Shown: piece after piece, positions 4,669 to 33,516 of the stretch
How the letters are laid out: every line of letters begins with the position of its first letter
Position numbering within the stretch: the first letter of the stretch is position 1
Origin: Betaproteobacteria bacterium
GTDB lineage: Bacteria; Pseudomonadota; Gammaproteobacteria; Burkholderiales; JACQAP01
Direction: 5' to 3'
Length of the DNA: 55,746 nucleotides
Assembly (NCBI GenBank): GCA_031406075.1
Contig: JANOGP010000356.1
Location: forward strand, 1-55,746
Program-made: the position numbers and the translations under genes
The notes under the pieces: generated by a model
What the model was told of the DNA's origin: nothing
Database searches by the model: none
Seen by the model: the letters and a program-made list of their open reading frames with translations, nothing else

Positions 4669-4862
4669 GCCACAGAGGGCACAGAGAATTCTTCACAATA
4701 CCCCCTTGAGGGGTACACAGAGGAAAACGAAAGAGACACAAGTTGATCAAGATGCAAAGAGTCATGCAGTGCTAGCAAATTGCCACTGCCCACGCCGTTC
4801 CAGTCGCCCTTAACCCCCCAATTGCTCTTGCACTCCTCTGGGTTCTCTGTGCCCTCTGTGGC
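4669..4862. repeat. Family A fold-back element (9-mer CACAGAG arms) with 27-bp insert at 4689-4715
   Basis: Left arm GCCACAGAGGGCACAGAGAA[27]CACAGAGG; right arm CCTCTGGGTTCTCTGTGCCCTCTGTGGC; interior is an inverted homolog of 8104-8269. Confidence 0.9.
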
Positions 4863-4872
4863 AAAAAAGGGT

Positions 4873-5190
4873 TTAGGGAGCTAACCATTGCAGCAGCCAC
4901 AAGGCAGCCATGCCGACTACGATGGTCGGCATAATTTTCTTGAAGCGCCACGCCACCAGGATTGCGATTGCGCCGGCGATCAGGCGATGATTGTCCATGC
5001 TCGCCGCAAATTGACTGTCCCGAACCAGTAACTCCGGAAACACGATCGCGGACATCACCGCCGGTGGCACGAATCCGAGCGCGCGTTGTACCAGGGGTGG
5101 CATCCCCCAGTTCGCAAGCAGAGAAATGAACGAAAGGCGGATGAGGAAAGTCAGCACGCCCGCAACGATCACCACCAGCCAGAGGTTCAC
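4873..5190 (-). CDS. azlD: AzlD-domain branched-chain amino acid exporter, small subunit
   Basis: TFLIRLSF, ALGFVPPAVMSAIVFP; GTG start overlaps azlC stop (GTGA). Confidence 0.85.
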   Translation of the reverse strand: MNLWLVVIVAGVLTFLIRLSFISLLANWGMPPLVQRALGFVPPAVMSAIVFPELLVRDSQFAASMDNHRLIAGAIAILVAWRFKKIMPTIVVGMAALWLLQWLAP

Positions 5191-5873
5191 TTCCGCAGCC
5201 TCCAAGCCAGCATTCCTGCGCTGATGCCGCAGAACGCGGCGAGAATAAGCCCGAGCTTGTAAGGTAGTCCGAAGGCGGCTACCGCCACCATGCCGCCCAC
5301 CAGCGCCGTAATCACGTCGGCCCGCGACCTGAGCACCGGCACCAGCAACGCAATGAACGACAGCGCCAGGGTGAAATCGAGCGACCACTCGCGCGGTATT
5401 TCAGTACCGAGGAAGATGCCGACCGCGGTGCTCGCCTGCCAGGTGCCCCACAGCGCCACGCCGGCGCCGAAGAAATACCAGTGCCGGTTCCGTTCTCCAG
5501 AGTTTTCGCGGTAGTGCGCGATCGCAACCGCAAATGCCTCGTCCGTAAGCAGGTAGGAAAGCACCCACTTCCATGCCCGAGGCAGCTCCTTCACGTATGG
5601 CGCCATCGACGCGCTGTACAGCGCGTGCCGCAGATTGATGATGAAAGTGGTCAGGACGATCACCAGTCCCGATGCGCCGGCGCCGATCAACTGGGCGGCG
5701 ATGAATTGCGCCGAGCCGGCGAACACGATCAGCGAGATCGCCTGCGCCAATATCACGGGAATCCCGGCGCCGATCGCAAGCACCCCGTAAATGATGCCGA
5801 AGGGAGCGGCGCCGATCAGCAGCGGGAAAGTATCCCTCAGACCGGAAAAGAACTGCGCGCGGGCGCTGGGCAT
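5187..5873 (-). CDS. azlC: AzlC-family branched-chain amino acid exporter
   Basis: FAGSAQF, INLRHALYS, LTDEAFA; start refined to MPSAR. Confidence 0.92.
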   Translation of the reverse strand: MPSARAQFFSGLRDTFPLLIGAAPFGIIYGVLAIGAGIPVILAQAISLIVFAGSAQFIAAQLIGAGASGLVIVLTTFIINLRHALYSASMAPYVKELPRAWKWVLSYLLTDEAFAVAIAHYRENSGERNRHWYFFGAGVALWGTWQASTAVGIFLGTEIPREWSLDFTLALSFIALLVPVLRSRADVITALVGGMVAVAAFGLPYKLGLILAAFCGISAGMLAWRLRK

Positions 5874-6056
5874 GGTTTCGATCACGCTGTTATTGTCGGC
5901 CGATTGTAGACAGGCGCTTGATGCCGCGTCCGTTAAGGTTTTACGGAATCGCGGCCGGAACGGGGAATCGCCGGGCCGATCCACCCTTGCTGCTTGAGCC
6001 CGGACAGTTGAGTCTAGGCACCCTTCGACAGGGTACCGTCTTACAATTTCCGTGGC

Positions 6057-7042: not shown

Positions 7043-8104
7043 ATGAACGAGGAGTTCATCGGCACGATGCCGGTCCATGAGCGGCATCGCTTCGATGTTG
7101 CCAGTCTGGAACGCTATCTGCGCGAGCATGTCGCAGGCTTCTCGGGAAACCTCGAGGTCGAACAGTTCAAGGGCGGCCAGTCCAATCCCACCTTCAGGCT
7201 GACGGCGGGCGGCAAGCGCTACGTTCTGCGCCGCAAGCCGCCGGGCAAGCTGCTGCCATCGGCGCACGCAGTGGACCGGGAGTACCGCGTGATCACCGCG
7301 CTGCACGGCAGCGACGTGCCGGTGGCGAAAACCTACTGCCTGTGCGAGGACGACGCGGTGATCGGCACGGCGTTCTACATCATGGATTACGTAGAAGGCC
7401 GCGTGCTGTGGGATCCGTCGCTGCCCGGCACGAGCACGGTTCAGCGCGCGGCGTACTTCGACGAGTTGAACCGCGTGATCGCCGCGCTTCACAAAGTTGA
7501 TTACGTCCGGGCAGGCCTCACCGACTACGGCAAACCGGGCACCTACATCGAGCGGCAGATCAGCCGCTGGACCAAGCAGTACCGTGCCTCCGAAACCGAG
7601 CGCATCGAGGCGATGGAGGATCTGATCGAGTGGCTGCCGAAGAACATGCCGCCGGGCGACGAGACCACCATCGTCCATGGCGATTACCGGATGGACAACG
7701 TGATTTTTCATCCGAAGGAGCCGCGGATCCTCGCAGTGCTCGACTGGGAACTGTCCACACTTGGACATCCGCTGGCGGATATCGCGTATCACTGCATGGT
7801 CTGGCGGCTTACTCCGGGCCAGTTCCGCGGCATGAACGGAATCGACTTTCGCGCACTGGGCATACCGACCGAGGAAGAATATGTCGCCGCTTATTGCAGG
7901 CGCACCGGCAGGAATCACGTTGCGAACTGGGATTTCTACCTGGCCTACAACATGTTCCGCCTGGCAGGGATACTTCAGGGCATCATGGGCCGGGTCAAGG
8001 ACGGCACCGCGGCAAGCGCGCACGCAATGGAGCAGGGCAAGCGCGCCCGGCCCATGGCCGAAGCCGGCTGGCGCCAGGTTGAGAAGATCCTTAAGACCAA
8101 TTAG
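7043..8104 (+). CDS. APH-family phosphotransferase (ACAD10/11 N-terminal-like)
   Basis: GGQSNPT, SAHAVDREY, HGDYRMDN, LDWELSTLGHP; start refined to MNEEF. Confidence 0.92.
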   Translation: MNEEFIGTMPVHERHRFDVASLERYLREHVAGFSGNLEVEQFKGGQSNPTFRLTAGGKRYVLRRKPPGKLLPSAHAVDREYRVITALHGSDVPVAKTYCLCEDDAVIGTAFYIMDYVEGRVLWDPSLPGTSTVQRAAYFDELNRVIAALHKVDYVRAGLTDYGKPGTYIERQISRWTKQYRASETERIEAMEDLIEWLPKNMPPGDETTIVHGDYRMDNVIFHPKEPRILAVLDWELSTLGHPLADIAYHCMVWRLTPGQFRGMNGIDFRALGIPTEEEYVAAYCRRTGRNHVANWDFYLAYNMFRLAGILQGIMGRVKDGTAASAHAMEQGKRARPMAEAGWRQVEKILKTN

Positions 8105-8269
8105 CCACAGAGGACACAGAGGACACAGAGGAGAGCAAAAGCAAATTGGGGGTTAAGGGCGACGTGCAAGGTGTAGGCAGCGATACCTGCGAGCAGCGTC
8201 TGACTCGTTGCATTCTTATCAGCCTATTTCTCTTTCGTTTTCCTCTGTGCCCTCTGTGCCCTCTGTGGC
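8104..8269. repeat. Family A fold-back element directly upstream of the GxxExxY gene
   Basis: GCCACAGAG-GACACAGAG-GACACAGAG ... CTCTGTGCC-CTCTGTGCC-CTCTGTGGC; first G is the last base of the upstream TAG. Confidence 0.92.
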
Positions 8270-8292
8270 CCAAATTTCTTTGGGGTAGATAG

Positions 8293-8658
8293 ATGCCCGA
8301 CGAGTTGACGGAGCGCATTATCGGAGCGGCGGTGGAAGTTCATCGTCATCTGGGGCCAGGTTTGCTCGAGAGTATTTATGAAGAGGCGCTGACTTATGAA
8401 CTAGGATTGCGGCAGATCAAATTCGAAAGGCAAATCGCCATTGACGTCTTGTACAAAGATATTCGTATTCATGGACAGCGACTCGATTTGCTCGTCGAAA
8501 AAGAGGTTGTCGTTGAAATAAAGTCTATGAAGGCGGTTCCTGCCGTGGCTTCCGCGCAAGTGCTCTCCTATCTTAAGGCAACGGGGCTCAAGCGTGCTTT
8601 GCTGATAAATTTCTCGGAAACAAAGTTAGTCAATGGGATAAGGCGGTTCTCTCTGTGA
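8293..8658 (+). CDS. GxxExxY protein (PD-(D/E)XK nuclease-like)
   Basis: 121 aa; IIGAAVEVHRHLGPGLLESIY, RLDLLV..VVVEIK, AQVLSYLK, LLINF; more AT-rich than its neighbours. Confidence 0.93.
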   Translation: MPDELTERIIGAAVEVHRHLGPGLLESIYEEALTYELGLRQIKFERQIAIDVLYKDIRIHGQRLDLLVEKEVVVEIKSMKAVPAVASAQVLSYLKATGLKRALLINFSETKLVNGIRRFSL

Positions 8659-8677
8659 TCTCTGTGTACTCTGTGGC
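8651..8677. repeat. Family A right arm containing the GxxExxY stop codon
   Basis: CTCTGTGAT-CTCTGTGTA-CTCTGTGGC; TGA at 8656-8658 lies in the first unit. Confidence 0.9.
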
Positions 8678-8692
8678 AAGGAAAGGTTTTAG

Positions 8693-9677: not shown

Positions 9678-9845
9678 TTTCACCGCAAAGGCGCAAAGGA
9701 CGCAAAGAAGAACAAAAACAGGCAAATGTGAAAATCGCACAGGCTGCGGATTTAGAATCATGGACGAATATCGTTCTTGTTTGCATGTTCCTTGTATTTC
9801 ACAATTTTCGTTTTCCTTTGCGTTCTTTGCGCCTTTGCGGTGAAA
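9678..9845. repeat. Family B fold-back element (CGCAAAG arms)
   Basis: TTTCACCGCAAAGGCGCAAAGGACGCAAAG ... CTTTGCGTTCTTTGCGCCTTTGCGGTGAAA. Confidence 0.9.
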
Positions 9846-13874: not shown

Positions 13875-13976
13875 GGTGAATGGTGAGGGGTGAGCGGTGA
13901 GGAGTGAGGAATAGACCAAGCCTCGCTCCTTTTGTCGTCCTTCGTGTACCCCTCGAGGGCGTATTGAAAAGTATCC
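13875..13976. repeat. Heptamer tandem array (RGTGARN x5) plus degenerate family A arm with 27-bp cassette
   Basis: GGTGAAT GGTGAGG GGTGAGC GGTGAGG AGTGAGG at 13875-13909; TACCCCTCGAGGGCGTATTGAAAAGTA at 13947-13973 (22/27 to the cassette). Confidence 0.75.
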
Positions 13977-14006
13977 AAAGTTTTAAGAGAGAGACGCCCC
14001 TAAGTC

Positions 14007-15707: not shown

Positions 15708-16092
15708 CAGAGTAGTCGGCGGCGCACACAGACGGGCGTTGCTGACGTACCGGAGAGTGCGGCAATGGTTCGCGACTATGGTGTTTGCGGCAAAGAATGC
15801 AAACAGGCCGCGGACTGCAGCTCGTTCGGGGCAAAACGGCTGCCGGCATGACGAATGAGGCGCTTCGCCTCGCCGTCAGGCCCGGAGTAGGGCGCAAGTG
15901 AAGCCGAGTTAGCTTCTTCATCCGCTGTTGCGTGCTTCCAGTTTTGAACTCCGTGTTCTTATGCGTGATTTACCGAATAGTGGGACGATTCTGACTGCAA
16001 TGGCCGTGAGAACCTCGAGACTAATCGGGAAACGCCGGATATTCATGTAGCCGCCCGTCCTACAAAATTCTCCGTTTCTTTCGGCTTCAACC

Positions 16093-16725: not shown

Positions 16726-16726
16726 T

Positions 16727-21777: not shown

Positions 21778-21948
21778 TGCGCTCCCCCCGTGTCGCGAGT
21801 CTTGTGCCCGCGCTCGATCGGCTTGTCCGCCCGCGGCAAATCTGGCGCGACGACGAATTTAGCCGTTTTTCCCGGAGTGCTGCAACCGGTCAGCCGGAAA
21901 TCCGCGTCCCGGAGGGAGCGACTGGCGCCGATGTCATAATCGAACCAA

Positions 21949-23403: not shown

Positions 23404-23422
23404 GCGGTCCGGGCGGGCCGCG

Positions 23423-23902: not shown

Positions 23903-24095
23903 GCAGATCACGTCGACTCCTCCTTTTGGAGGTAGTCGACGCAAAGTCCATGCCGAGAAAAAATGTGTTCCTGGCCCGTTGATCCAGCTCCAATCTGACG
24001 GGCCGCGACACTTGGGTGCCGTTCGACGTCGCTCGACCGGCTGTCGTTTTCCGGCGACGGAGTGTCAGGCCGTGCGTAAGGTCCGAAAAGCTTTC

Positions 24096-24410
24096 ACCAC
24101 GGGGGATTCTTCACAATACCCCCTTGAGGGGTACACGGGGTACACGGAGAAAAAACGAAAACGAGGGAGAATGAATTGGAGTTCAAGACGGGGTGACTGT
24201 TCGCGAATGTGTGCCGCCACCTTTCGCTGCGATGGATCATTAGCCAACCCAGGTTTCTCACCTCAGCATGTTCTTCTTGTCTTTCCTCCGGCGCCGCCGA
24301 CACGGCGTTGGCGTAGCCATCTGGGGCGGGAGGCGGCGCTTCGGCGCACTACCCGCAAACGGCCGACTACGTCGGTAACGTGTCCGTGCGCCATCCCGTG
24401 CCCCCGTGGT
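24096..24410. repeat. Family A fold-back element with 27-bp insert (24107-24133) and interrupted right arm
   Basis: ACCACGGGGGA[27]CACGGGGTACACGGAG; interior homologous to the 27276, 29549 and 33299 copies; outer right arm CCCGTGCCCCCGTGGT ends at 24410. Confidence 0.8.
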
Positions 24411-24437
24411 ATGAGTTGCTCTGCGCTTTCAGCCCTC

Positions 24438-24565
24438 TCAGCCGAACGGCACCGGCACGTAGATCCGCGCCTCATCACGCTGGACCAGCAGCGCCACGGT
24501 TTTGAGGACTTCTTCACCAGTTGCTTAAGTTGCTCGATGCATCGCCGGAATGCCGGCGGCTGATT
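24438..24565 (-). pseudogene. Degraded C-terminal PDZ remnant of a DegQ/HtrA protease
   Basis: Fragments AAGI/PGD, IEQLKQLVKKS and (after a frameshift) KTVALLVQRDEARIYVPVPFG*. Confidence 0.65.
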
Positions 24566-24572
24566 GCCGGCG

Positions 24573-24929
24573 CTACGCCGGCGATTTGGCCCCGATAGTA
24601 CGTACCCGGTTCATTGCCTTGACGGCGATGAAGATTGCCCACGCCACGATCAGGAAATCGACTAGCGTGCTGATGAATGCACCGTACTTCAACAACGGCG
24701 CTCCGGCTGCCTGCGCCGCTTCCAGCGTCTCGAAGGTCGCCGATCCGAGATTGACGTACAGCTGCCGGAAATCCACGCCACCCAGCAGCATGCCGATCGG
24801 CGGCATGATGATGTCCTTAACCAGTGAATCGATGACCTTACCGAAAGCGGCGCCGATGATGATGCCAACCGCCATGTCCATCATGTTGCCCTTGATCGCG
24901 AACTCCTTGAACTCGGAAATCAGGCTCAT
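24573..24929 (-). CDS. mscL: Large-conductance mechanosensitive channel
   Basis: [43 protein letters not shown]. Confidence 0.96.
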
Positions 24930-25088
24930 TGTTTCTCCTTTCGAAGGTTGTCTTGACCCGGGGCGTACACCGTGTCAGCCCCGGCCGCCGCCATGGTAGT
25001 CGGCGGCGACCGAAATTCCCAGTAGTGTTCGACTCGATTGGCACGGTGTAGGCTTGCAGTCCCTGGACCCGCTTCGGGAGAACGAACG

Positions 25089-25952
25089 ATGCATGTGCAA
25101 GAGTGCTGGCGCTGGTGCGGTTTGGCCGGTGTGTCATGGGCGGCGATCCTGACGTTGCTGCCCCTTGGGTCGGTCGCCCAGGACAGGCTGCAGCTTTTCG
25201 ACGGGCATATCCACTACAGCGTCGGTTCGCCGAAACAGTATCCGCCGGAGAAAGCGATCGCGATCCTGGATGAGGCGGGGATCGGCCGGGCGCTGCTGTC
25301 CAGCACTCCGAACGATGGCACCATCCAGCTCCACAAACTGTACCCGGAGCGTTTCATTCCCGAATTGCGACCTTACCGCAAGACCCGCGATTTCGAGACT
25401 TGGGCGGTGGAGCGCGCCAGCTGGTATCGCGACCCGGAAACCGTGACGTTCATAGAGGAGGAACTCAAGCGCGGCATCTACCGGGGAATCGGCGAGTTTC
25501 ATCTTGACGGGGATGAAGCCGACACACCGGTAATACGCAAGATCGTGGATATCGCAGTCGAGCGCAACCTGTGGCTGCACGCACATTCGGACGCTGCCGC
25601 GGTCGAAAAACTTTTTTCGTTCAATCCCCGGGTGCGTATCGTCTGGGCGCACGCGGGTATGAGCACGCCGCCGGAAGCCATCGACCGCTGGCTCGCGCGT
25701 TATCCGGCGCTGTGGGCGGAACTTTCCTATCGCGACGTCGTGGCGGGCGGCGGCGAGCTGGATCCGCAGTGGAAGGCGTTGTTCCTGAAGTATCCCGACC
25801 GCTTCATCTACGGCAGCGACACCTGGATACCGCCGCGCTGGGGTCAGGTCGTCACGTTGGCGGAGCAGGCCAGGGGCTGGCTCGCGCAATTGCCGCGGGA
25901 CGTGGCGGAAAACATTGCCTTCCTCAACGCCGAACGGATTTTCGGCAAGTAG
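25089..25952 (+). CDS. Exported amidohydrolase (TIM-barrel metallohydrolase)
   Basis: DGHIHY, GIGEFH, WAHAG, FIYGSDT. Confidence 0.85.
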   Translation: MHVQECWRWCGLAGVSWAAILTLLPLGSVAQDRLQLFDGHIHYSVGSPKQYPPEKAIAILDEAGIGRALLSSTPNDGTIQLHKLYPERFIPELRPYRKTRDFETWAVERASWYRDPETVTFIEEELKRGIYRGIGEFHLDGDEADTPVIRKIVDIAVERNLWLHAHSDAAAVEKLFSFNPRVRIVWAHAGMSTPPEAIDRWLARYPALWAELSYRDVVAGGGELDPQWKALFLKYPDRFIYGSDTWIPPRWGQVVTLAEQARGWLAQLPRDVAENIAFLNAERIFGK

Positions 25953-25990
25953 TCTACGAGGTACGGGAAAACAATCAGGTCAAGAACGAT

Positions 25991-26112
25991 GACGCAAAGG
26001 ACGCAAAGTAGAAAAGAAAGGTACGCAAAGTAATACTCAATGATGTGGCTGTTTCGTCTATGCTTTTTGTCCTCCTTTTTTCTTCGCGTTCCTTCGCGTC
26101 TTTGCGGTAAAA
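25991..26112. repeat. Degenerate family B fold-back element
   Basis: GACGCAAAGGACGCAAAG..TACGCAAAG ... CTTCGCGTTCCTTCGCGTCTTTGCGGTAAAA, between convergent genes. Confidence 0.75.
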
Positions 26113-26145
26113 GTTTTTATAGTTTTTCGGTGATGAAAATAAAAA

Positions 26146-27246
26146 TTAGCGCGGGAAGAGCTGTACTTCTGGGAACCCGAGCGCCCGCTTGATGCGCGTG
26201 TTGGCGACCGGGCGGATGCCCGAGCGGTCCAGCCGCCACTTGTCCATATACTGGGCGGGTTTGAGCAGCGTCACCCCGGACTTGCCGAGAAACTCATCCA
26301 ACGCGGCGTCGGAGAATGGCCAGGGCATGCCGGCTTCGAAGGGTTCCCACAGGCCATCCCAGTGAATGGGGATGTAGGCCCTGGGTTTGATGACCGGCAC
26401 CACAAGTTGCGCGATCGGCACACCGCCCGTGCCGATCCATAAGTCCACCGACTGCAATCCCGCGTCCTTCATCGCGCTCTTGAGGTTTTCGATCGGCGCG
26501 CCATAATCCACTCCATTGATGACGATCGGCACGTGCAGATCCACGGCGCTGGCGGAGTTTTGGTAGAACCAGCTGAAACGGCCTTGCGGACCGTCCACTG
26601 TAAACAGGAAGCCGCGGTTACCGCCGCCGTTGGGAAAGTCTTCCGCCACACCCGCGCGCAATCCTCCGGTTGCCGGGTCAGGGCGGGGAACGGCATCGAG
26701 CTCGACCGGGTCATGCTGCTCCCAGTTTTTCGCCGGATCGCCGCTGTGGTTCCAGCGCACCACGCGCAGCGTCACGCCTGCGCCCGGAGAAATCTTTTCC
26801 AGCCCGTATACCGGCGTGCAGCGCTCCGCCGGTATGTTTTCGGCCATCACCTCGAAACACGTTGTAATCGAGCCGATGATTGGAGCATTGGTTAGTTTCG
26901 ACCAGGTCGCGGTATCGAAAGAATGATCCCAGTGGCTGTGGCCGGTGAGGAGCAGATTGACCTCGCCCGCCCCGCCCATTGCGTCGAGCACGCGGGACAC
27001 CGCTTCGACGTCGGGCTTCCAGGGATGGCGGGTGTAGGCATATCCGCCGCCTCCGCCGTGAAACTCCCGTTCCGGGATGCGGCTGATGTAACCGTCGGTA
27101 AGAATCCTCAACGGCCCAAGTTCGTAGTGGATGTTGGCGATGGACATCCAGGTGATGTCTACATGAGCGGGACCCGCCGCCATGCTCTGGGATATCGAGG
27201 CAGCGGCAAGAATGGCGATCGCCGTGCCGGAAAATTTTTTCTTCAT
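26146..27246 (-). CDS. Exported metallo-beta-lactamase-fold hydrolase
   Basis: Signal peptide, TGHSHWDHSFD (HxHxDH), WNHS, IPIHWD. Confidence 0.85.
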   Translation of the reverse strand: MKKKFSGTAIAILAAASISQSMAAGPAHVDITWMSIANIHYELGPLRILTDGYISRIPEREFHGGGGGYAYTRHPWKPDVEAVSRVLDAMGGAGEVNLLLTGHSHWDHSFDTATWSKLTNAPIIGSITTCFEVMAENIPAERCTPVYGLEKISPGAGVTLRVVRWNHSGDPAKNWEQHDPVELDAVPRPDPATGGLRAGVAEDFPNGGGNRGFLFTVDGPQGRFSWFYQNSASAVDLHVPIVINGVDYGAPIENLKSAMKDAGLQSVDLWIGTGGVPIAQLVVPVIKPRAYIPIHWDGLWEPFEAGMPWPFSDAALDEFLGKSGVTLLKPAQYMDKWRLDRSGIRPVANTRIKRALGFPEVQLFPR

Positions 27247-27275
27247 AACGCCTCCAGATCAAAAACCAATTATTT

Positions 27276-27470
27276 GCCACAGAGGACACAGAGAACACAG
27301 AGGAAAAACAAGAACCAGGAAAAGCAGGTTGTGAATAAAGGCGAGGTAAATGTTCGCAAACTCGTGCCGCCAATTTTTGCTGCAATGGATCATGAGCCAA
27401 TGCAAGATTCTTGCCCCAGTTTATTTTCTTGCTCTTGCCCTTCCTCTGTTTCCTCTGTGTTCTCTGTGGC
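27276..27470. repeat. Family A fold-back element (no 27-bp insert)
   Basis: GCCACAGAGGACACAGAGAACACAGAGG ... CCTCTGTTTCCTCTGTGTTCTCTGTGGC. Confidence 0.9.
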
Positions 27471-27489
27471 GAAAAGTATAGATCGCAGA

Positions 27490-27987
27490 CTAGACCCGGC
27501 GGGCTTCGACGAAGTGTTTCTTCCAGTAGTCCGCGCTGAGGCTGTCGGTGCGCACGCGTCCGCCGGTGGATGGCGCATGGACGAAGCGGCCGTCGCCGAG
27601 GTACATGCCGACGTGCGAGGCCTTCTTTCCTTCCTGATCGAAAAACAGCAGGTCGCCCGGGCGCAGGCGGCGCGCTGAAATCAGCGTGGTGGCCTTGCGT
27701 TGCGCCGGTGTGGCGCGCGGCATGCTGATTCCGGCGCGGCCGTAGCTGTAGCGCACCAACCCGCTGCAGTCGAAGCCGGCCGGCGTATCGCCGGCGTAGC
27801 GATAGGGCTTGCCGATCATCTCGCGTGCAGCGGCAACGGCCTGGCGCGCCGTTTCGTCGCTGGCTCGCGTTGCCGGCGCCTCGGCGACTTGCGGCGAGCT
27901 GGCACAGCCGGCCAGTGCCGCAATTAGCAGCAGCGGTGAAAGCCGCAGCGCAACCCAAGCCGGGAACGCGCCGTGATATGTGGTCAT
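27490..27987 (-). CDS. NlpC/P60 (C40) lipoprotein peptidase, paralog of 23423-23902
   Basis: LAGC lipobox, GFDCSGL, HVGMYLGDGRFVHAPSTGG. Confidence 0.93.
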   Translation of the reverse strand: MTTYHGAFPAWVALRLSPLLLIAALAGCASSPQVAEAPATRASDETARQAVAAAREMIGKPYRYAGDTPAGFDCSGLVRYSYGRAGISMPRATPAQRKATTLISARRLRPGDLLFFDQEGKKASHVGMYLGDGRFVHAPSTGGRVRTDSLSADYWKKHFVEARRV

Positions 27988-28177
27988 CGTGTCAGGCACT
28001 CCACAAGGCCGCATGCTGTGACGAAACCAGGATAGCAGAACGTCGAGATTGCTCCTGAGGGAGAAGGGCTTGATTAACTGCCAACCGCCCCTTATTTTGA
28101 GAGTCAACGCGGCCGTCATGGTTCCCGTTTACGGACGCTTGTTCTATCCGGCAATGGCAGTTCACACAAGGAAAGAA

Positions 28178-29539
28178 ATGAAACGATTGATCTCCAGGCT
28201 GGTCCGGGCCGCGCTGGCAGGCGCGCTCACATTCGCGGCGGCCGGCGGCGCGCATGCCGGCATACCGCCGATTACCGATGGCGAGGGCACGCCTACGCTC
28301 GCGCCGATCCTCGAACAGGTAACCCCCGCGGTGGTGAATATCGCGGTGCTGTCGCGCTCCCCTGAGGAAGACAATCCGATGTTGCAGGACCCGTTCTTCC
28401 GCCGCTTTTTCGGACTGCCTGAACGCGCACAGCCACAGATTTCCGCGGGCTCGGGCGTGATTGTGGACGCGAAGCTGGGCCATGTGCTGACCAACCATCA
28501 CGTGATCAAGGACGCGAGACAGATCGTCGTCACACTCAAGGACGGCCGCCAGATCGAGGCCAAGCTCCTCGGTTCGGACGCCGGTACCGATATCGCCTTG
28601 CTGAAAATCGAGGGTCAGAAACTCACCGCAATCGGATTTGCCGATTCAGACAGGCTGCGGGTGGGGGACTACGTGCTGGCAATTGGCAACCCCTTCGGCA
28701 TCGGGCAGACGGTCACGTCGGGAATCGTCAGCGCGTTGGGGCGCACGGGGCTGAGCATGGAAGGCTACGAGGACTTCATCCAGACCGACGCCTCAATCAA
28801 CCCCGGCAACTCCGGCGGGGCGCTGGTCAATCTCAGGGGCGAACTGGTCGGCGTCAATACCGCGATCATCGGCCCATCCGGCGGCAACGTCGGCATCGGC
28901 TTCGCCGTGCCGAGCAACATGGCGCGCGCGGTGATGAACCAGCTTGCGAAGCACGGCGAAGTCAGGCGCGGGCGCATCGGGCTGACCACCCAGGAGATCA
29001 CGCCGGAACTTGCGATAGCGCTCGCGCTGACACCCAACCAGGGCGCCGTGGTGGTGGACGTCGCTCCTGATTCGCCGGCGGCCAAAGCGGGATTGAAGCG
29101 CGGTGATGTGGTCGTCGCGGTGAACGGACGCAGCGTTCGCGGTTCGTCCGACCTGCGCAATCAGGTCGGCCTCATGGCGGTCGGGGAACAAGTCGAGTTC
29201 AAAGTGCTCCGCGACGGCAGGGAGCTGGTTCTCAAGGCCAGGGTCGAGAGCTTGCGCGCAGTGACTGCCCTCGGCAGCGAGATCGTGGCGGAACTGCAGG
29301 GTGCGACGGTGGGCACGGTCGAAGGCAGCGGCAAGCCGAACGCCGTGATGATCGCGGAAGTCGAACGCGACAGCCCGGCTTGGTCGCACGGGTTGCGCCC
29401 CGGCGATGTGATCGTCGCGGTAAACCGCAGGAAAGTCAGCAGCGTGCGCGAACTGATCGCCGCACTGAAGACGCCGGGCAGGGCGGTGTTGTCGGTAGTT
29501 CGTGGGGAATACATCTTCGCCATCGTGCTTCGCAGATAA
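28178..29539 (+). CDS. degQ: DegQ/HtrA serine protease with two PDZ domains
   Basis: GSGVI, TNHHV, DIAL, QTDASINPGNSGG. Confidence 0.92.
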   Translation: MKRLISRLVRAALAGALTFAAAGGAHAGIPPITDGEGTPTLAPILEQVTPAVVNIAVLSRSPEEDNPMLQDPFFRRFFGLPERAQPQISAGSGVIVDAKLGHVLTNHHVIKDARQIVVTLKDGRQIEAKLLGSDAGTDIALLKIEGQKLTAIGFADSDRLRVGDYVLAIGNPFGIGQTVTSGIVSALGRTGLSMEGYEDFIQTDASINPGNSGGALVNLRGELVGVNTAIIGPSGGNVGIGFAVPSNMARAVMNQLAKHGEVRRGRIGLTTQEITPELAIALALTPNQGAVVVDVAPDSPAAKAGLKRGDVVVAVNGRSVRGSSDLRNQVGLMAVGEQVEFKVLRDGRELVLKARVESLRAVTALGSEIVAELQGATVGTVEGSGKPNAVMIAEVERDSPAWSHGLRPGDVIVAVNRRKVSSVRELIAALKTPGRAVLSVVRGEYIFAIVLRR

Positions 29540-29548
29540 GGTCTTTTT

Positions 29549-29787
29549 GCCACAGAGGGTTCTGTTTGATACCCCCTTGAGGGGTACACGGAGGAAACGC
29601 AAGAGCAGGAAAATAGGTTCGGGTGAAAATCTTTCGTTGGCTCCTGAGCAATCGCAGCGATAGTTCGCGGTACAGGTTAGCGAACAGTTACCTCGCTTTT
29701 ATCCCCAATTCGTTTTTCCTCGTTTTTGTTCTTCCTCCGTGCCCTCCGTGTACCCCTCAAGGGGGTATTGTGAAGAATCCCCCGTGG
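29549..29787. repeat. Family A fold-back element with a 27-bp cassette in both arms (29560-29586 variant; 29751-29777 on minus strand)
   Basis: GCCACAGAGGG[TTCTGTTTGATACCCCCTTGAGGGGTA]CACGGAGG ... CCTCCGTG[TACCCCTCAAGGGGGTATTGTGAAGAA]TCCCCCGTGG; fills the gap between convergent stops. Confidence 0.92.
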
Positions 29788-29788
29788 T

Positions 29789-31459
29789 TCACGATTTTAT
29801 TGTTTCTTCCCATTCTTTCTCCTGTAATTCGCGCCACTGGATCTTGCCGGTGCCGGAGCGGGGTAACTGATCGGCGAATTCGACGATGCGTGGCACCTTG
29901 TACGCCGCCATGTGGCCGCGCGACCATTCGATGATGTCTTCCGCGCTCACCTGTCCCTTGCGGTCTTCCTTGAGGACGATGACCGCCTTCACGGTTTCGC
30001 CGCGGCGCGGGTCCGGCGCGGAGATCACCGCCACTTCCTTGATATCCGGGTGCTTGTAGAGCGTGGCCTCGAGTTCAGCCGGCCAGACCTTGAAGCCGGA
30101 GGCATTGATCATGCGCTTGAGCCGGTCGGCGATGTAGTAGTAACCGTCCTCGTCGACACGCCCGAGGTCGCCGGTGCGAAGGAAGGTCTTGCCTTCAATC
30201 TCGATGAAAACCGCTTCGTTCGCGTCCGGCCGCTGCCAGTAGCCTTTCATTACCTGCGGACCGTGCACCACGATCTCGCCCTGCTCGTTCGCTCCGAGCG
30301 GTTCGAGAGTATCGGGGTTGATCACCAGCGATTCGGTATCGAAAGTGGGAATGCCGAGGCACTGTTTGCGCGGCTTGTTCGGCGGGTTCATATGGGTCTG
30401 CGAGATGGTTTCGGTCATCCCGTAGGCCTCCATGTAATCGATTCCGCATAATTCATGGAGCTTTTGCGCGACCGCTTCCGGCATCGAGCTGCCGCCGCCG
30501 AATACATTCTGCAGCGAGGACAGGTTGCGGCCAGCGGTCGCGGGGTGGGCCAGCAGGTCCACCACCATCGTCGGCACGTTGGCCCAGTGTGTGCAGCCGT
30601 AACGCTCGATCATGTAGCCTGCGGCATCCGGATTCCAGCGCGGCAGGATGGCAATGGTCGCGCCCGCGTACAGAGGCGCGTTCATGCTGTGCTGCATGCC
30701 GGTGACGTGAAACATCGGTGCGGTCGCCAGTGCCACGGAATCGGCGGTGAATCCTTCCCACAGCGCCGCCCCGACCAGCGTGGTCATGATGGTGCGGTGG
30801 GTATGAATGCACCCCTTGGATTTCCCGGTGGTCCCTGAGGTGTAGAGAATCGCGGCGAAATCGTCCGCCTCGGCTGACGGTTTCAGCGGCTTGTAGGTGG
30901 CGGCTAATGCATCGGCCCACGACACGACACCGGGATCGGTGATGGCCAGGCGCGGCGCCTGCAGGAATTCCGGGATCTCCAGCGTGGTGTATTCGGTCAG
31001 GTAATCGCCGTAGGTGACGACGATCGCGTGTTTCACCTGCTTGCCCATCAGCGGCTGGATCTGCGGATACAGGTCCTGGGCGACGAAGGCGACGGATGCA
31101 CCGCCGTCTTCAAAGTAATGAACCAGTTCGTCGGTCACATGCATCGGGCTGACCGGTACCACGACCGCGCGCGCGCGCAGGATCGCGTAATAGGCGATGA
31201 TGAACTGCGGCGAATTCTGCATCTGCAGCATCACGCGATCGCCCTTGCGCACGCCGCAGCGGTTCTGCAGGAAGCCGGCGATGAGGTCGACGTCCTTCTT
31301 CAACTGGCGATAGGCAAGGCGCGTGTCATAAAAAATCGTGGCCGGTTTTTCGGGGTGACGCGCTGCCGATACCTCGAGATTGAAATGCAGTGCCGTGGCT
31401 GGCACGGTGAGGTGCCTGGGGAGGTGCTTGGGCCAGTGTTGCAGATGCCGGGCTTCCAT
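29789..31459 (-). CDS. Long-chain-fatty-acid--CoA ligase family protein
   Basis: YTSGTTGKSKG, YGMTET, RTGDLG, PRSGTGKI. Confidence 0.93.
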   Translation of the reverse strand: MEARHLQHWPKHLPRHLTVPATALHFNLEVSAARHPEKPATIFYDTRLAYRQLKKDVDLIAGFLQNRCGVRKGDRVMLQMQNSPQFIIAYYAILRARAVVVPVSPMHVTDELVHYFEDGGASVAFVAQDLYPQIQPLMGKQVKHAIVVTYGDYLTEYTTLEIPEFLQAPRLAITDPGVVSWADALAATYKPLKPSAEADDFAAILYTSGTTGKSKGCIHTHRTIMTTLVGAALWEGFTADSVALATAPMFHVTGMQHSMNAPLYAGATIAILPRWNPDAAGYMIERYGCTHWANVPTMVVDLLAHPATAGRNLSSLQNVFGGGSSMPEAVAQKLHELCGIDYMEAYGMTETISQTHMNPPNKPRKQCLGIPTFDTESLVINPDTLEPLGANEQGEIVVHGPQVMKGYWQRPDANEAVFIEIEGKTFLRTGDLGRVDEDGYYYIADRLKRMINASGFKVWPAELEATLYKHPDIKEVAVISAPDPRRGETVKAVIVLKEDRKGQVSAEDIIEWSRGHMAAYKVPRIVEFADQLPRSGTGKIQWRELQEKEWEETIKS

Positions 31460-31469
31460 TGAGGTCGAT

Positions 31470-33137
31470 TCAGCCGGCGAGTTTCTTGTTTTCAGCTTCC
31501 TGCAACTGCCGCCACTGAATCTTGCCGGTCGCTGATTTCGGCAGGCTGGCGACGAACTCCACCACTCGCGGGACTTTGTATGCGGCCATGCGTTCGCGCG
31601 ACCAGGCCACGATGTCTTCCTGCGTGACTTTTCCGCGGCTTGCTTCCTTTAGCACCACCACCGCCTTGACGGTTTCGCCGCGCCGCGGATCCTGCGTGCC
31701 GATTATGCAGGCCTCGTGAACGTCGGCGTGATGATAGAGCGTGGCCTCGACCTCGGCCGGCCAGACTTTGTAGCCCGATGCGTTGATCATTCGCTTGAGG
31801 CGATCGACGATGAAAAAGTAACCGTCCTCGTCGTAGTAGCCGAGGTCGCCGGTACGGAAATAGCGTTTGCCTCCGAGTTCCATGAAACTCGCCGCCGTCG
31901 CGTCCGGATTCTTCCAGTATCCGAGAAAGATCTGCGGGCCGCTGCAGACAATCTCGCCGACCTCCTTTGCGCCGAGCTCCTTCAGCGTGTCGGGGTTGAT
32001 CACCCGTGCTTCGGTCGAACAGATCGGAATGCCCAGGCATTGCTTCTTGGTGCGTTGGGGCGGGTTGATGTGCGTTGGCGCGATGGTTTCCGACAGTCCG
32101 TAGCCCTCGATGTACGAAAGACCGGTGCGATCCTGGAGACTCTGCGCCACCGCCTCGGGCATCGCCGCGCCGCCTCCGCCGATGTGCTTGATGCTGGTGA
32201 TATCGTAACGGCCGAGTTCCGGATTGGAGAGGAAGTCGATCGCCATGGTGGTGATGTTGGTCCAGCCGTCGACTTTGTGGCGCTGTATCAGTTCGGCGGC
32301 GGTGTCGCGGTCCCAGCGCGTCATCAGCGCGATGGTCGCGCCGCGGTAGATCGGCTGATTCATGCTGCATTGCATTCCGGTGACGTGAAACAGCGGCATG
32401 GTGCACAGGACCACCGAGTTGGCGTCCATTTCGACCCAGGCCGAGCCGGCAATGATCGTGCTCATCACCGTGCGATGGGTGTGGATGCAGCCCTTGGGCT
32501 TTCCGGTAGTGCCCGAGGTGTAGGGCATGACGCACATGTCGTCCGGCCCGGCGCGGTGTGGCCCGGGCGCAAGACCGGCGGCGAGGGCGTCGCTCCACAA
32601 GGTCACGCCCGGTTCACGGATCGCCTGCCGCGGCGCTGCCGCCGCTTCCGGTACCTTCAGATCGGTGGACTGGGTGAGATGATCGGAATAGGCGGCTACC
32701 AGGACGTGATCGACGCCCTTGCCGATCAGCGGGCGCAGCTGGGGAAAGACCTCCTGCCCGGTAATCGCAACCCTGGCATCGCTGTCGGAAACGTAGTGGC
32801 GCAGTTCATCGGTGAGATTCATCGGGTTCACCGGCACGGCCATCGCATCGGCGCGCAGGATCGCGTAGAACGCAATCATGAACTGCGGACTGTTCTGCAT
32901 GAACAGCAGCACGCGATCACCCTTTTGCACGCCGCAGCGGTGTTGCAGGAAGCCGGCGAGCGCATCCACCTCGCTCTTGAAAGCACGGTAGGTGAGCGCT
33001 GAACCGTAGTAGAGAAGTACGGTCTTTTCGGGTTCCCGTGCGGCCGAGCTCGCCAGATTGTGATAGACGCTGGCCCGGGGCAGCACGATTTCATGCGGCA
33101 CGTTCTCCGGCCAGAAACGGTAATGACTTGGCTCCAC
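31470..33137 (-). CDS. Long-chain-fatty-acid--CoA ligase family protein (tandem paralog)
   Basis: YTSGTTGKPKG, YGLSET, RTGDLG, PKSATGKI; GTG start after GAGGAG, aligned with the paralog. Confidence 0.92.
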   Translation of the reverse strand: MEPSHYRFWPENVPHEIVLPRASVYHNLASSAAREPEKTVLLYYGSALTYRAFKSEVDALAGFLQHRCGVQKGDRVLLFMQNSPQFMIAFYAILRADAMAVPVNPMNLTDELRHYVSDSDARVAITGQEVFPQLRPLIGKGVDHVLVAAYSDHLTQSTDLKVPEAAAAPRQAIREPGVTLWSDALAAGLAPGPHRAGPDDMCVMPYTSGTTGKPKGCIHTHRTVMSTIIAGSAWVEMDANSVVLCTMPLFHVTGMQCSMNQPIYRGATIALMTRWDRDTAAELIQRHKVDGWTNITTMAIDFLSNPELGRYDITSIKHIGGGGAAMPEAVAQSLQDRTGLSYIEGYGLSETIAPTHINPPQRTKKQCLGIPICSTEARVINPDTLKELGAKEVGEIVCSGPQIFLGYWKNPDATAASFMELGGKRYFRTGDLGYYDEDGYFFIVDRLKRMINASGYKVWPAEVEATLYHHADVHEACIIGTQDPRRGETVKAVVVLKEASRGKVTQEDIVAWSRERMAAYKVPRVVEFVASLPKSATGKIQWRQLQEAENKKLAG

Positions 33138-33298
33138 CCTGAGTTTCTCCTCGTCCTGCGTAGTCGCAAAAGGCTTTTTTGTCGTCGGGCCCGCCCTGGC
33201 AGACTCTCGCGGGCCGGTCCTTGCGGTTTCGCGACCGACTATGTTGGACATGCCTGCCGCCGAGGTCAACGCCACTCTTACGAAATAGGTAAAGTTCC

Positions 33299-33516
33299 TG
33301 AACACGGAGGACATAGAGGATTCTTCACAATACCCCCTTGAGGGGTACACGGAGGAAGAACAAAGAAAAGCGAATTGGGGTTTGGAAGAGCGTCTGTTTG
33401 TGAACCTGTGCCGCCAATATTCGTTGCGACGGATCATCAAGCAATGAAAGGCTTTTAACCCGAGTATTTTCTTTGCTCTTGCCTTTCCTCCGTGTTCTCT
33501 GTTTCCTCCGTGTTCA
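33299..33516. repeat. Family A fold-back element with 27-bp insert (33321-33347)
   Basis: TGAACACGGAGGACATAGAGGA[27]CACGGAGG ... CCTCCGTGTTCTCTGTTTCCTCCGTGTTCA. Confidence 0.9.

What the first reader, a model, noticed from the sequence alone, without database searches (positions are those of the whole stretch)
4669..33516. Family A elements are full-length homologs in two subfamilies and both orientations (MITE/REPIN-like)
Seen: similarity extends through the 110-150 bp interiors, not just the arms. Subfamily 1: 4669-4862 is an inverted homolog of the GxxExxY-adjacent 8104-8269 (shared AATTGGGGGTTAAGGGCGAC...TGACTC.TTGCAT...TCTCTTTCGTTTTCCTCTGTG). Subfamily 2: 24096, 27276, 33299 and inverted 29549 share approximately TGTTCGC.AA..TGTGCCGCCA..TTCGCTGCGATGGATCA..AGCCAA. 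Purine-rich tracts after left arms and pyrimidine-rich tracts before right arms extend the stems. Inference: whole units were copied, not independently expanded microsatellites; a conserved interior could be a structured RNA.
Basis: seen in the sequence. Interest (0 to 1): 0.78.

Follow-up and report, generated by a model that had tools for sequence, protein, structure and literature searches.

The report
Gene-less hairpin repeats of nuclease cassettes
These repeats are real, whole-copy relatives of each other: they are the gene-less members of an abundant hairpin-shaped DNA element whose complete form carries a small uncharacterised nuclease gene, and they look like selfish mobile DNA, not like a folded RNA.

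Summary
Observation confirmed. The interiors, with arms excluded, align 12-26 SD above dinucleotide shuffles. Subfamily 1 has only the two window copies. Subfamily 2 has 36 copies in the genome, four of them in the window.

They belong to about 176 intergenic foldback elements, 0.9% of the genome. Their arms are 2-4 tandem 8-9-nt units (CACAGAG, CGCAAAG, CACGAAG and others) in inverted orientation.

All 3 GxxExxY (PF13366) nuclease genes of the genome lie at such arms; two are enclosed by a pair. So do 58 of 80 homologues from many phyla. In one relative the same cassette has lost its gene by internal deletion.

Two operon junctions hold empty, gene-bearing, gene-less, flipped or replaced versions in sister species.

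The structured-RNA idea is not supported: no Rfam hit, no consensus fold, z about 0, random orientation, family confined to the genus. There are no target duplications and no HUH partner.

This scan met the same cassette kind before (43 notes, at least 41 genomes). I found no printed description. The mechanism is inferred.

The parts
4669..4862 (.). Subfamily-1 foldback element with CACAGAG-type arms. Its interior is inverted relative to the 8104 copy. It fills the gap between two convergent genes.
   Evidence: gene context from my own gene calls
4688..4718 (+). 28-29-nt mini-hairpin repeat nested between two units of the left arm. The homologous arm of the 8104 copy lacks it.
8104..8269 (.). 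Subfamily-1 foldback element. The stop codon of the upstream gene lies in its outer terminus.
8293..8658 (+). GxxExxY gene, 121 aa (TIGR04256, 136 bits; PF13366 PDDEXK_3, 135 bits). D65 and K77 are invariant and E75 is at least 90% conserved in 37 homologues.
8647..8679 (-). Extra right arm (three CACAGAG-type units, read on the lower strand) that overlaps the stop codon of the GxxExxY gene and closes the gene cassette.
   Evidence: (D7, I17)
9678..9845 (.). Foldback element with CGCAAAG-type arms. Its interior has no blastn relative in the genome. It lies between two co-directional genes.
   Evidence: (I8)
13916..13976 (.). Arm fragment carrying the mini-hairpin repeat in reverse orientation.
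   Evidence: (D15, I6, I20)
24096..24410 (+). Subfamily-2 element with CACGGGG-type arms. A mini-hairpin sits in the left arm (24104-24136) and a ~105-nt GC-rich nested repeat splits the right arm (about 24289-24392).
25985..26110 (.). Foldback element with CGCAAAG-type arms. At the same site, relative G048 carries a subfamily-2 element beside a remnant CGCAAAG arm.
27276..27470 (+). Subfamily-2 element with CACAGAG arms, lying between two genes of the minus strand. Orthologous copies are in G048 and G003, an inverted one is in G011, other occupants are in six relatives, and no element is present in G001 and G006.
29549..29790 (-). Subfamily-2 element with its interior inverted, carrying the mini-hairpin in both arms (29569-29589 and 29748-29780). 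It lies between convergent genes.
   Evidence: (I1, I5)
33299..33516 (+). Subfamily-2 element with CACGGAG arms and a mini-hairpin in the left arm (33316-33350). The G048 orthologue lacks the mini-hairpin and has a different core.
42171..42376 (.). Foldback element with CGCAAAG arms (53-nt arms, 92% complementary). Its interior belongs to a third family of 9 copies, which also occupies the 8104 junction in G057 and G011.
   Evidence: (I4)
43818..43849 (+). Solo left arm (CACAGAG units) without a recognisable partner arm.
   Evidence: (D6, I11, I17)

Best explanation
The two 'subfamilies' are lineages of gene-less copies of a foldback (hairpin) DNA element.

Anatomy. An element has an outer terminus TTTYRC preceded by an A-rich stretch. 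Next comes an arm of 2-4 tandem 8-9-nt units with the fixed letters C-C--AG (CACAGAG, CGCAAAG, CACGAAG and others). Then follow a purine-rich tract, an interior of about 124 nt, a pyrimidine-rich tract and the mirror-image arm. The complete form carries, in place of the non-coding interior, a 120-aa GxxExxY PD-(D/E)XK nuclease gene that fills the space between the arms.

Shown here. Copies are inherited and multiplied as whole units. Gene-less forms can arise from gene-bearing ones by internal deletion. Elements sit in intergenic gaps, mostly 10-19 nt after a stop codon. The same gap in sister species can be empty, occupied, flipped or occupied by another lineage. All units of both arms of an element tend to share one 'flavour'.

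Inferred. The element acts at the DNA level as selfish DNA. The arms, as a hairpin or cruciform or as an array of binding sites, are the substrate of the GxxExxY nuclease, which moves gene-less copies in trans. Resident copies are also overwritten or inverted by recombination between arms. The conserved interiors are passengers that are similar by descent, not a folded RNA.
For: Family and anatomy.
- There are 275 forward and 272 reverse arms (141 in reversed-sequence control). 185 left-then-right pairs lie 40-400 nt apart, against 3 in the opposite order.
- That gives 176 elements after de-duplication.
- Interior median is 124 nt, IQR 109-142.

Whole-unit descent.
- One search finds 36 copies, one search finds 2, and one search gives z 12-26.
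- Arm flavour follows the interior tree: 13 changes against a shuffle mean of 17.7, and 1 of 1000 shuffles was as low.

Link to the nuclease.
- 3 of 3 GxxExxY genes of the genome are at arms. Two of them are enclosed by a left and a right arm.
- 0 of 3 Y1_Tnp genes have an arm within 2 kb.
- 58 of the 80 best GTDB loci have tandem units upstream (forward) and downstream (reverse). The wrong-strand control gives 9 of 80.
- Across 36 congeners, arm count and GxxExxY count correlate, rho 0.49. 24 of 27 arm-rich genomes have the gene, against 4 of 9 arm-poor ones. These genomes are kin, so the figures are descriptive only.

Birth by deletion. G020 keeps the arms, the leader and the last ~57 nt of the gene that G048, G017, G003, G018, G008 and G005 carry at the same junction.

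Presence, absence and replacement.
- Junction 8104-8692, 21 genomes read: 5 empty, 8 gene-bearing with two paralogues (37-41% identical), 1 deletion form, 6 gene-less of at least 4 kinds, 1 footprint.
- Junction 27247-27489, 13 genomes.
- One flipped copy.

DNA level rather than RNA level. On the sense strand the arms show 267 G-U and 237 A-C mismatches, p 0.20. Interior orientation is 12 with and 11 against the flanking genes.

The nuclease looks active. D65 and K77 are invariant and E75 is at least 90% conserved. The model has pLDDT 94.9. The weak fold matches are all PD-(D/E)XK nucleases.
Against: No movement or cleavage was observed; the mechanism is inference.

Three congeners have 203-414 arm dimers but no GxxExxY match: G047 (100% complete), G011 and G052. 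So copies persist, and perhaps spread, without the gene in the assembly. Repeat-flanked genes may also be missing from draft assemblies.

Arm flavour is not tied to the protein clade below 75% identity. Same-flavour pairs are 155 of 414 at 60-75% identity and 329 of 1196 at 50-60%, against a random expectation of 0.35. That gives no sign that the protein reads the variable letters.

22 of the 80 GTDB loci lack units on both sides.

There are hints of host-level constraint.
- In one orthologous pair (G000 and G048) the arms are 94% and 90% identical and the interior 83%. Third codon positions are 73-82% identical and other intergenic DNA 63-72%.
- Interior length is tightly kept, although 87 of 176 interiors have no blastn relative.
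- Elements sit close behind stop codons and are under-represented between divergent genes: 10 of 163, against 383 of 3013 gaps.

The count of 176 may include a few contigs assembled twice (contamination 3.8%; C185 and C186 look like duplicates).
Confidence: 0.55

Rival explanations
1. Host-useful RNA hairpins. The long stems are kept because in the transcript they protect upstream mRNA, uncouple neighbouring cistrons or give RNase III sites, as is proposed for REP sequences and for rRNA intervening sequences. On this reading the nuclease gene is only one of several things that can sit in the loop.
For: 128 of 163 placed elements lie between co-directional genes. The first unit lies a median 16 nt after the upstream stop codon, and 85 of 178 such distances are 10-19 nt. 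Arms are more conserved than third codon positions in the one orthologous pair measured. Two junctions stay occupied in most congeners although the occupant changes. Earlier notes of this scan proposed the IVS analogy.
Against: G-U mismatches show no excess over A-C on the sense strand (267 vs 237, p 0.20). The same junction is empty, with 9-34 nt between stop and start, in G001, G047, G009 and G015, so the hairpin is dispensable there. No terminator-like or promoter-like site falls in the elements of 24000-34000. Copy number differs 50-fold within the genus (12 to 604 arm dimers). RNA data could not be obtained.
Confidence: 0.15
2. Recombination-driven repeat with no enzyme of its own. The arms spread, flip and replace each other by host homologous recombination, slippage and gene conversion. 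GxxExxY is a passenger, for example a defence or addiction gene, that happens to ride in these slots.
For: Arm-rich genomes exist without GxxExxY (G047, G011, G052). Arm flavour is independent of the protein clade. Residents are replaced at occupied sites, and remnant arms lie beside new elements. One copy is inverted in place. Units within an arm are homogeneous: 222 of 352 arms have all units identical.
Against: Recombination alone does not explain arrival at about 176 unrelated junctions. The gene-plus-arms package recurs across many phyla (58 of 80 loci), and 3 of 3 genes in this genome are at arms. The catalytic residues are conserved.
Confidence: 0.2
3. One reading: the conserved interior of subfamily 2 (or 1) is a structured non-coding RNA that the arms merely frame.
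For: The interior is similar over about 110 nt in 36 copies. In one orthologous pair it is slightly better kept (83%) than third codon positions (73-82%). Column conservation is more uneven than a uniform binomial model, though that model ignores relatedness.
Against: No Rfam family matches. RNAalifold finds no pair. My scan of all column pairs found only purine/pyrimidine low-complexity pairings. Fold z-scores run from -0.88 to +0.99. Orientation is 12 with and 11 against the flanking genes. No conserved start codon or reading frame appears in the alignment (my reading). The family was not found outside the genus: only G000 and G020 matched among 151 genomes, that is 1 of 96 genera. At orthologous sites the core is deleted (G014) or replaced (G048 at 33299).
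Confidence: 0.05

Closest known systems
REP/REPIN elements with their RAYT gene (REPtron arrangement; Bertels & Rainey 2011, PMC3116915, abstract read)
   Same: Both are short extragenic inverted repeats that form hairpins and occur in tens to hundreds of copies. Neither makes target duplications. In both, non-autonomous copies far outnumber a small nuclease-type gene that itself lies between inverted copies of the repeat. Closeness to stop codons is also reported for E. coli REPs; I recall this and did not read it here.
   Different: The partner here is a PD-(D/E)XK (GxxExxY) protein, not a Y1/HUH transposase. The 3 Y1 genes of this genome have no arms nearby. The arms are arrays of 8-9-nt tandem units in several 'flavours', not one fixed REP palindrome. 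The elements carry a ~124-nt interior that falls into sequence families.
MITEs (miniature inverted-repeat transposable elements derived from DDE insertion sequences)
   Same: Both have terminal inverted repeats, a non-coding body, a length of 150-250 bp and many copies. Both arise by internal deletion of a coding parent; here that was seen directly in G020.
   Different: There is no target-site duplication. No DDE transposase lies between matching arms. The termini are tandem-unit arrays.
ORF-bearing intervening sequences of bacterial 23S rRNA
   Same: In both, a small selfish ORF is enclosed by a long stem formed by inverted flanks.
   Different: The elements here lie between protein-coding genes, not in rRNA helices. 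No sign of RNA-level selection was found. The ORF family is different.
Small dispersed repeats nested in other repeats of cyanobacteria (Elhai et al. 2008; recalled; seen only as a cited title in the listing)
   Same: The 28-29-nt mini-hairpin, whose core is ACCCCCTTGAGGGGT, is inserted between arm units, always in one orientation (55 hits). That resembles very small mobile repeats which land inside other repeats.
   Different: The phylum, sequence and host repeat differ. I did not read that paper, so the comparison is a lead only.
The GxxExxY foldback cassettes noted earlier in this scan (43 notes in at least 41 genomes)
   Same: The arm architecture, nuclease family and coexistence of gene-less copies are the same.
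   Different: Most gene-less copies in this genome are not bare hairpins. They carry interiors of about 124 nt, and some of these form conserved families of 36, 11, 9 and 6 copies. This report adds a caught deletion derivative, replacement of occupants at two junctions, and two smaller repeats nested in the arms.

Membership tests
Classical MITE | Terminal inverted repeats | tested here: met
   Both arms share the dominant unit in 142 of 176 elements. The whole element folds as ssDNA with z -4.82.
Classical MITE | Target-site duplication flanking the element | tested here: not met
   No direct repeat of 3-6 nt rises above a few of 176 at any offset from 0 to 31. A 7-mer direct repeat in the 35-nt flanks occurs in 13 of 175 elements; partner-shuffled flanks give a mean of 10.1 and a maximum of 19.
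Classical MITE | Autonomous parent with the same termini that encodes a DDE transposase | tested here: not met
   Among left and right arms 400-4000 nt apart, the only convincing matched pair encloses the GxxExxY gene of contig C35. The genome was not searched for DDE families.
REPIN/RAYT | Extragenic inverted doublets that form hairpins | tested here: met
   163 of the 166 elements that have a called gene on both sides are intergenic. There are 185 left-right pairs against 3 right-left pairs.
REPIN/RAYT | A RAYT (Y1/HUH, PF01797) gene flanked by the repeats | tested here: not met
   The genome has 3 PF01797 matches. None of them has an arm within 2 kb.
Rfam structured RNA or novel structured RNA | Match to a curated family, or a conserved fold with covariation | tested here: not met
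   No family reaches its gathering score. RNAalifold predicts 0 pairs on 36 copies. Fold z-scores run from -0.88 to +0.99. R-scape was not available.
GxxExxY foldback cassette family (so far defined only inside this scan) | Inverted arms built of tandem 8-10-nt units with the core C-C--AG | tested here: met
   The unit period is 9 nt (390 cases), 8 nt (225) or 10 nt (24), with 2-4 units per arm.
GxxExxY foldback cassette family (so far defined only inside this scan) | A TIGR04256/PF13366 gene enclosed by such arms, in the same genome and in unrelated phyla | tested here: met
   3 of 3 genes in G000 are at arms. 58 of 80 GTDB loci have units on both sides, against 9 of 80 in the wrong-strand control.
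GxxExxY foldback cassette family (so far defined only inside this scan) | The nuclease acts on the arms | not testable with these tools
   This needs biochemistry or genetics. The only evidence here is conservation of D65, E75 and K77 and a PD-(D/E)XK fold.
rRNA intervening sequence | Insertion in a helix of 23S or 16S rRNA, removed by RNase III | tested here: not met
   All window copies, and 163 of the 166 elements that have a called gene on both sides, lie between protein-coding genes. No rRNA match occurs in the window. Processing of the RNA was not testable.

The most novel reading that the evidence does not exclude
The C-C--AG-unit foldback elements are a domain-wide class of hairpin mobile DNA. 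Their enzyme is a minimal 120-aa PD-(D/E)XK nuclease (GxxExxY, function unknown). It would be a counterpart of the HUH/RAYT-REPIN partnership that uses a different catalytic fold. The arms would work as exchangeable 'slots': gene-bearing, gene-less and cargo-carrying versions overwrite, flip and delete each other at the same operon junction, and arm units are homogenised in both arms at each round.
Probability: 0.35. Interest if true: 0.8.

Novelty: new variant of a known kind. Interest (0 to 1): 0.6.

Why it matters
PF13366/TIGR04256 is a widespread protein family. The 2012 survey of PD-(D/E)XK enzymes lists its function as 'Unknown' (PMC3424549, table row read). I found no later paper on it.

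Tying the family to a defined, abundant DNA structure gives it a first testable substrate. It also suggests a second enzyme class, besides HUH transposases, that maintains hairpin repeats in bacterial genomes.

For this genome, the result explains about 0.9% of the DNA and many assembly breaks. It also warns against annotating the conserved interiors as small RNAs.

The genus offers an unusually clear natural experiment. One operon junction can be read in empty, gene-bearing, deleted, gene-less and replaced states across sister species.

Tried and rejected
RNA structure.
- The Rfam gathering search of the window found nothing.
- RNAalifold on 36 copies predicted no pairs.
- My own all-pairs scan and two hand-proposed helices were not supported.

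Gene remnants. blastx of all 176 interiors against 83 GxxExxY proteins gave nothing better than E about 0.01. So subfamilies 1 and 2 are not recognisable gene remnants.

Expression and population data.
- Expression: no RNA holder was listed.
- Contigs of four DNA runs laid on 14001-34000: contigs break at the elements. The joints at arms, including an 'opposite strands' joint 27432/29712, have sides of 39 nt or less and probably come from other copies. I drew no inference (one search failed because the stretch was one base too long and was corrected).

Naming the organism.
- A search by handles tells no kinship.
It is a genus with 37 species genomes here.

Protein structure.
- A PDB search by sequence found nothing at E up to 1.
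- Foldseek against the PDB found nothing at E up to 1e-3, only weak PD-(D/E)XK matches.

Other sequence tests.
- Target duplications: none.
- The promoter and terminator scan of 24000-34000 found nothing inside the elements.
- Co-variation of protein clade and arm flavour: none below 75% identity.

Mini-hairpin in both arms as proof of arm-to-arm copying. By my reading of the list, six elements carry it in both arms. My rough expectation from independent hits is about three. This is too weak to use.

Selection on the interior. I measured only one orthologous pair, and the column-variance test ignores relatedness. The question stays open.

Paper searches (full-text library only).
- 'GxxExxY': 3 papers, none on repeats (one passage read).
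- PDDEXK_3 / PF13366.
- SDR / heptameric terms.
- IVS-protein terms: 0 papers.
- Arm strings and TIGR04256: only three eukaryotic primer hits.
- REP / octamer / foldback combinations: 0 papers.
- SDR titles.
- Two searches failed on term format.
- No supplements were opened.

Full report
WHAT IS THERE

The window is contig C228 of a 3.59-Mb draft genome with 427 contigs and 61% G+C.

Their two ends are inverted arrays of an 8-9-nt unit.

The repeat finder confirms the long-range inverted homologies:
- 4786-4865 with 8101-8180 (83%).
- 4716-4777 with 8188-8249 (79%).
- 24086-24283 with 29601-29798 (198 nt, 77%).

I then tested interior cores alone, without arms or the purine/pyrimidine tracts. 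The pairs within subfamily 2 and the subfamily-1 pair score 12-26 SD above 300 dinucleotide-preserving shuffles. Subfamily 1 against subfamily 2 is at chance.

Subfamily 1 has only these two copies in the assembly. They share 135 of 166 positions and differ by a 28-nt hairpin inserted in one arm.

Subfamily 2 has 36 copies by iterated nhmmer, four of them in the window (alignments).

A ~105-nt GC-rich repeat with 17 matches in the genome interrupts its right arm, and the arm resumes near 24400.

THE WIDER FAMILY

A loose pattern for two or more tandem units finds 275 forward and 272 reverse arms. The reversed-sequence control finds 141.

185 left-then-right pairs lie 40-400 nt apart, against 3 in the opposite order. 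This gives 176 elements after de-duplication, together 31.5 kb or 0.88% of the genome. A few may be contigs assembled twice.

Arm structure:
- Arms have mostly 3 units.
- The unit period is 9 nt (390 cases), 8 nt (225) or 10 nt (24).

Units come in 'flavours':
- The whole arm tally of 547 arms gives CGCAAAG 168, CACAGAG 143, CGCAGAG 73 and CACGAAG 48.
- Both arms share the dominant flavour in 142 of 176 elements. Shuffled partners give a mean of 49 and a maximum of 69.

Outside the first unit the consensus is TTTYRC, preceded by an A-rich stretch.

Interiors are remarkably uniform in length: median 124 nt, IQR 109-142, and only 2 pairs with a gap under 40 nt. By blastn they fall into families of 43 (subfamilies 1 and 2, joined through purine tracts), 11, 9, 6, 3, 3 and seven pairs. 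87 have no relative.

THE LINK TO A NUCLEASE GENE

The gene beside the 8104 copy is a full-length GxxExxY protein: TIGR04256 at 136 bits and PF13366 at 135 bits. The genome has three such genes, and all three are at arms.
- On C35 the gene fills the space between a left and a right CGCAAAG arm.
- On C43 the same holds with CGCCAAG-like arms.
- In the window the gene is closed on the right by an extra arm (8647-8679) that overlaps its stop codon. On the left it is preceded by the complete subfamily-1 element.

Among arms 400-4000 nt apart, the C35 gene is the only convincing cargo. The three Y1/HUH (PF01797) genes have no arm within 2 kb.

I then looked outside this genus at the 80 best of 585 GTDB loci that encode a relative (the own genome was left out by the tool).
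- 56 loci have an inverted repeat of at least 14 nt across the gene. The reversed control gives 7. The direct-repeat control gives 30, inflated by the tandem nature of the arms.
- 58 loci have tandem C-C--AG units upstream on the forward strand and downstream on the reverse strand. The wrong-strand control gives 9.
- The record titles name Planctomycetota, Acidobacteriota, Chloroflexota, Bacteroidota, several proteobacterial classes, Chlamydiae-like bacteria, Gemmatimonadota, Verrucomicrobiota and some archaea.

I reached this link on my own. Then I found that this scan had already noted it 43 times in at least 41 genomes. Those notes are unchecked AI notes, and I count them as agreement, not as evidence.

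WHAT THE INTERIOR IS NOT

Structured RNA:
- No Rfam family reaches its threshold in the window.
- RNAalifold predicts no pair on the 36 copies.
- My scan of all column pairs found only purine/pyrimidine pairings.
- Six window interiors folded on both strands have z from -0.88 to +0.99.
- The whole element as ssDNA has z -4.82.

Orientation and coding:
- Among subfamily-2 copies between co-directional genes, 12 interiors point with the genes and 11 against.
- The interiors are not recognisable remnants of the nuclease gene.
- I see no conserved start codon in the alignment.

Distribution:
- A sequence-only covariance model of the interior matched only G000 and one congener among 151 genomes of the order. 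It matched none of 148 genomes from 95 other genera. Two further congeners also had no match, and at most 22 candidates per genome were scored.
- Within the genus many genomes hold copies at 72-83% identity.

The interior is therefore a young, lineage-specific sequence that travels with the arms.

EVIDENCE FOR TURNOVER AT FIXED SITES

My gene calls are a crude caller of my own (3440 genes, 86% coding). With them, the 176 elements divide as follows:
- 128 lie between co-directional genes.
- 25 lie between convergent genes.
- 10 lie between divergent genes.
- 10 lie at contig edges.
- 3 overlap a gene.

All gaps in the genome are 2257 co-directional, 373 convergent and 383 divergent. The first unit lies a median 16 nt behind the nearest stop codon.

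Junction 1 is the gap between the gene ending at 8104 and the gene starting at 8693. I read it in 21 genomes of the genus.
- Five are empty. G001, G047, G009 and G015 have only 9-34 nt between stop and start, and G006 has a short unrelated gap.
- Six carry a GxxExxY gene between CACGAAG arms (G048, G017, G003, G018, G008, G005). Their proteins are 74-85% identical to each other but only 37-41% identical to the G000 protein.
- G000 and G056 carry the CACAGAG version.
- G020 has the CACGAAG arms, the leader and the last ~57 nt of the gene, but not the rest. It is a gene-less element caught at its birth by internal deletion.
- G024 keeps a one-unit footprint.
- Six hold gene-less elements of at least four kinds. 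One has a subfamily-2 interior (G012), and two have the interior family of window 42171-42376 (G057, G011).

Junction 2 is window 27247-27489, read in 13 genomes.
- G048 and G003 have the orthologous subfamily-2 element.
- G014 has the same arms with most of the interior missing.
- G011 has the interior inverted (E 5e-19 on the opposite strand).
- Four genomes have other arms and interiors.
- Two have short remnants.
- G001 and G006 have no element.

Along the G048 contig that is syntenic with window 16.5-36.7 kb, I read four of the gaps.
- The 27276 copy is aligned straight through.
- The 33299 copy is retained with a different core and without the mini-hairpin.
- The 25985 site holds a subfamily-2 element next to a remnant of the old arm.
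- The gaps at the 24096 and 29549 elements are far longer in G048. I did not read them.

HOW THE ARMS EVOLVE

On a tree of the subfamily-2 interior cores, arm flavour changes 13 times. The shuffle mean is 17.7, and 1 of 1000 shuffles was as low. So flavour is inherited with the interior, yet it switches often.

222 of 352 arms have all units identical. Some process therefore homogenises about six units in two arms. I cannot tell which process it is.

Arm mismatches show no strand bias on the sense strand (G-U 267, A-C 237, p 0.20). This argues against selection acting only on a transcript.

Across 68 cassettes with a callable flavour, flavour matches protein similarity only at 75% identity or more (16 of 19 pairs). 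Below that it is at the random expectation of 0.35.

THE NUCLEASE

In 37 homologues D65 and K77 are invariant, and E75 is conserved in at least 90%. The AlphaFold model is confident, with pLDDT 94.9.

No solved structure matches by sequence. Foldseek gives only weak matches (best E 2e-3), all to PD-(D/E)XK nucleases: lambda exonuclease, Cas4, the AdnAB/AddAB nuclease domains, MGME1 and Hjc.

AGAINST MY READING
- Nothing shows movement or cutting.
- G047 (100% complete), G011 and G052 have 203-414 arm dimers and no GxxExxY match.
- The correlation of arm and gene counts (rho 0.49, n 36, G054 left out) is among kin and is only descriptive.
- In the one orthologous pair measured, the arms (94% and 90%) and the interior (83%) are better kept than third codon positions (73-82%).
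- Interior length is tightly kept.
- The near-constant occupancy of two junctions could mean a host use for a hairpin there.

These points keep the host-function rival and the recombination-only rival alive.

COMPARISON WITH WHAT IS KNOWN

The nearest described system is REPIN/RAYT (PMC3116915, abstract). The logic is the same, but the enzyme fold and the repeat architecture differ, and the HUH membership test fails here.

The classical MITE definition fails on target duplications and on the partner enzyme.

PF13366 is listed with unknown function in the 2012 survey (PMC3424549, table row).

Seven completed full-text searches found no description of the arms or of the gene-plus-arms unit. The library lacks most subscription journals, so this is not proof of absence.

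VERDICT

The 'whole units copied' inference is right. The 'MITE/REPIN-like' label is right in spirit but wrong as membership. The structured-RNA idea is not supported.

The thing itself is a member-rich local population of a widespread nuclease-associated foldback element that appears undescribed in print and that this scan has met before.

Noticed in passing
window 4688-4718, 24104-24136, 29569-29589, 29748-29780, 33316-33350, 13943-13976 (reverse); 55 hits genome-wide: A 28-29-nt mini-hairpin repeat (core ACCCCCTTGAGGGGT) is inserted between arm units, always in the same orientation relative to the unit. By my reading of the list, six elements carry it in both arms. The G048 orthologue of the 33299 element lacks it, so it is gained or lost separately from its host element.
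   Followed up: partly
window about 24289-24392; G000 C68:1031-1146; G048 C66 (site of window 25985): A ~105-nt GC-rich repeat has 17 matches in the genome at E up to 1e-5. It sits inside arms of subfamily-2 elements in this genome and in a relative. This is a second kind of repeat nested in the arms.
   Followed up: partly
window 36075-36110 and the orthologous gap of G048 (C66 reverse complement, 23700-23880): The same intergenic gap holds a run of GGCGAGA heptamers in this genome. In G048 it holds inverted arrays of an 8-nt GTGATTGA-like unit. This may be another foldback family with a different unit.
   Followed up: no
G000 contig C35:7950-8040: The reading frame of the gene upstream of the C35 GxxExxY cassette runs on through the left arm and stops at a TGA that overlaps the cassette's ATG. 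The arm therefore appears to encode the last ~14 residues of a host protein (open frame of 367 aa).
   Followed up: partly
G000 C373:8611-8627, C371:21259-21275, C333:4080-4096, C192:5030-5046, C70:13955-13971, C63:56-72, C374:7-23: The same small hairpin core also occurs in a different setting, flanked by CTCTCCCC-type runs and by GTAGAGGGC. This suggests a further repeat family that shares the core.
   Followed up: no
Pyrinomonadaceae genome G045 (reached through locus L019): This acidobacterial genome has 34 forward and 32 reverse exact CACAGAG-type arm dimers. Many form pairs only 40-160 nt apart, so bare or short-loop hairpins are common there, unlike in this genome.
   Followed up: no
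window 19356-19586 / 21046-21276, 29872-30344 / 31550-32022, 37398-37958 / 38691-39251: Three pairs of neighbouring paralogous genes show 70-79% DNA identity at spacings of 1293-1690 nt. They are unrelated to the repeats (D1-D4, D8).
   Followed up: no
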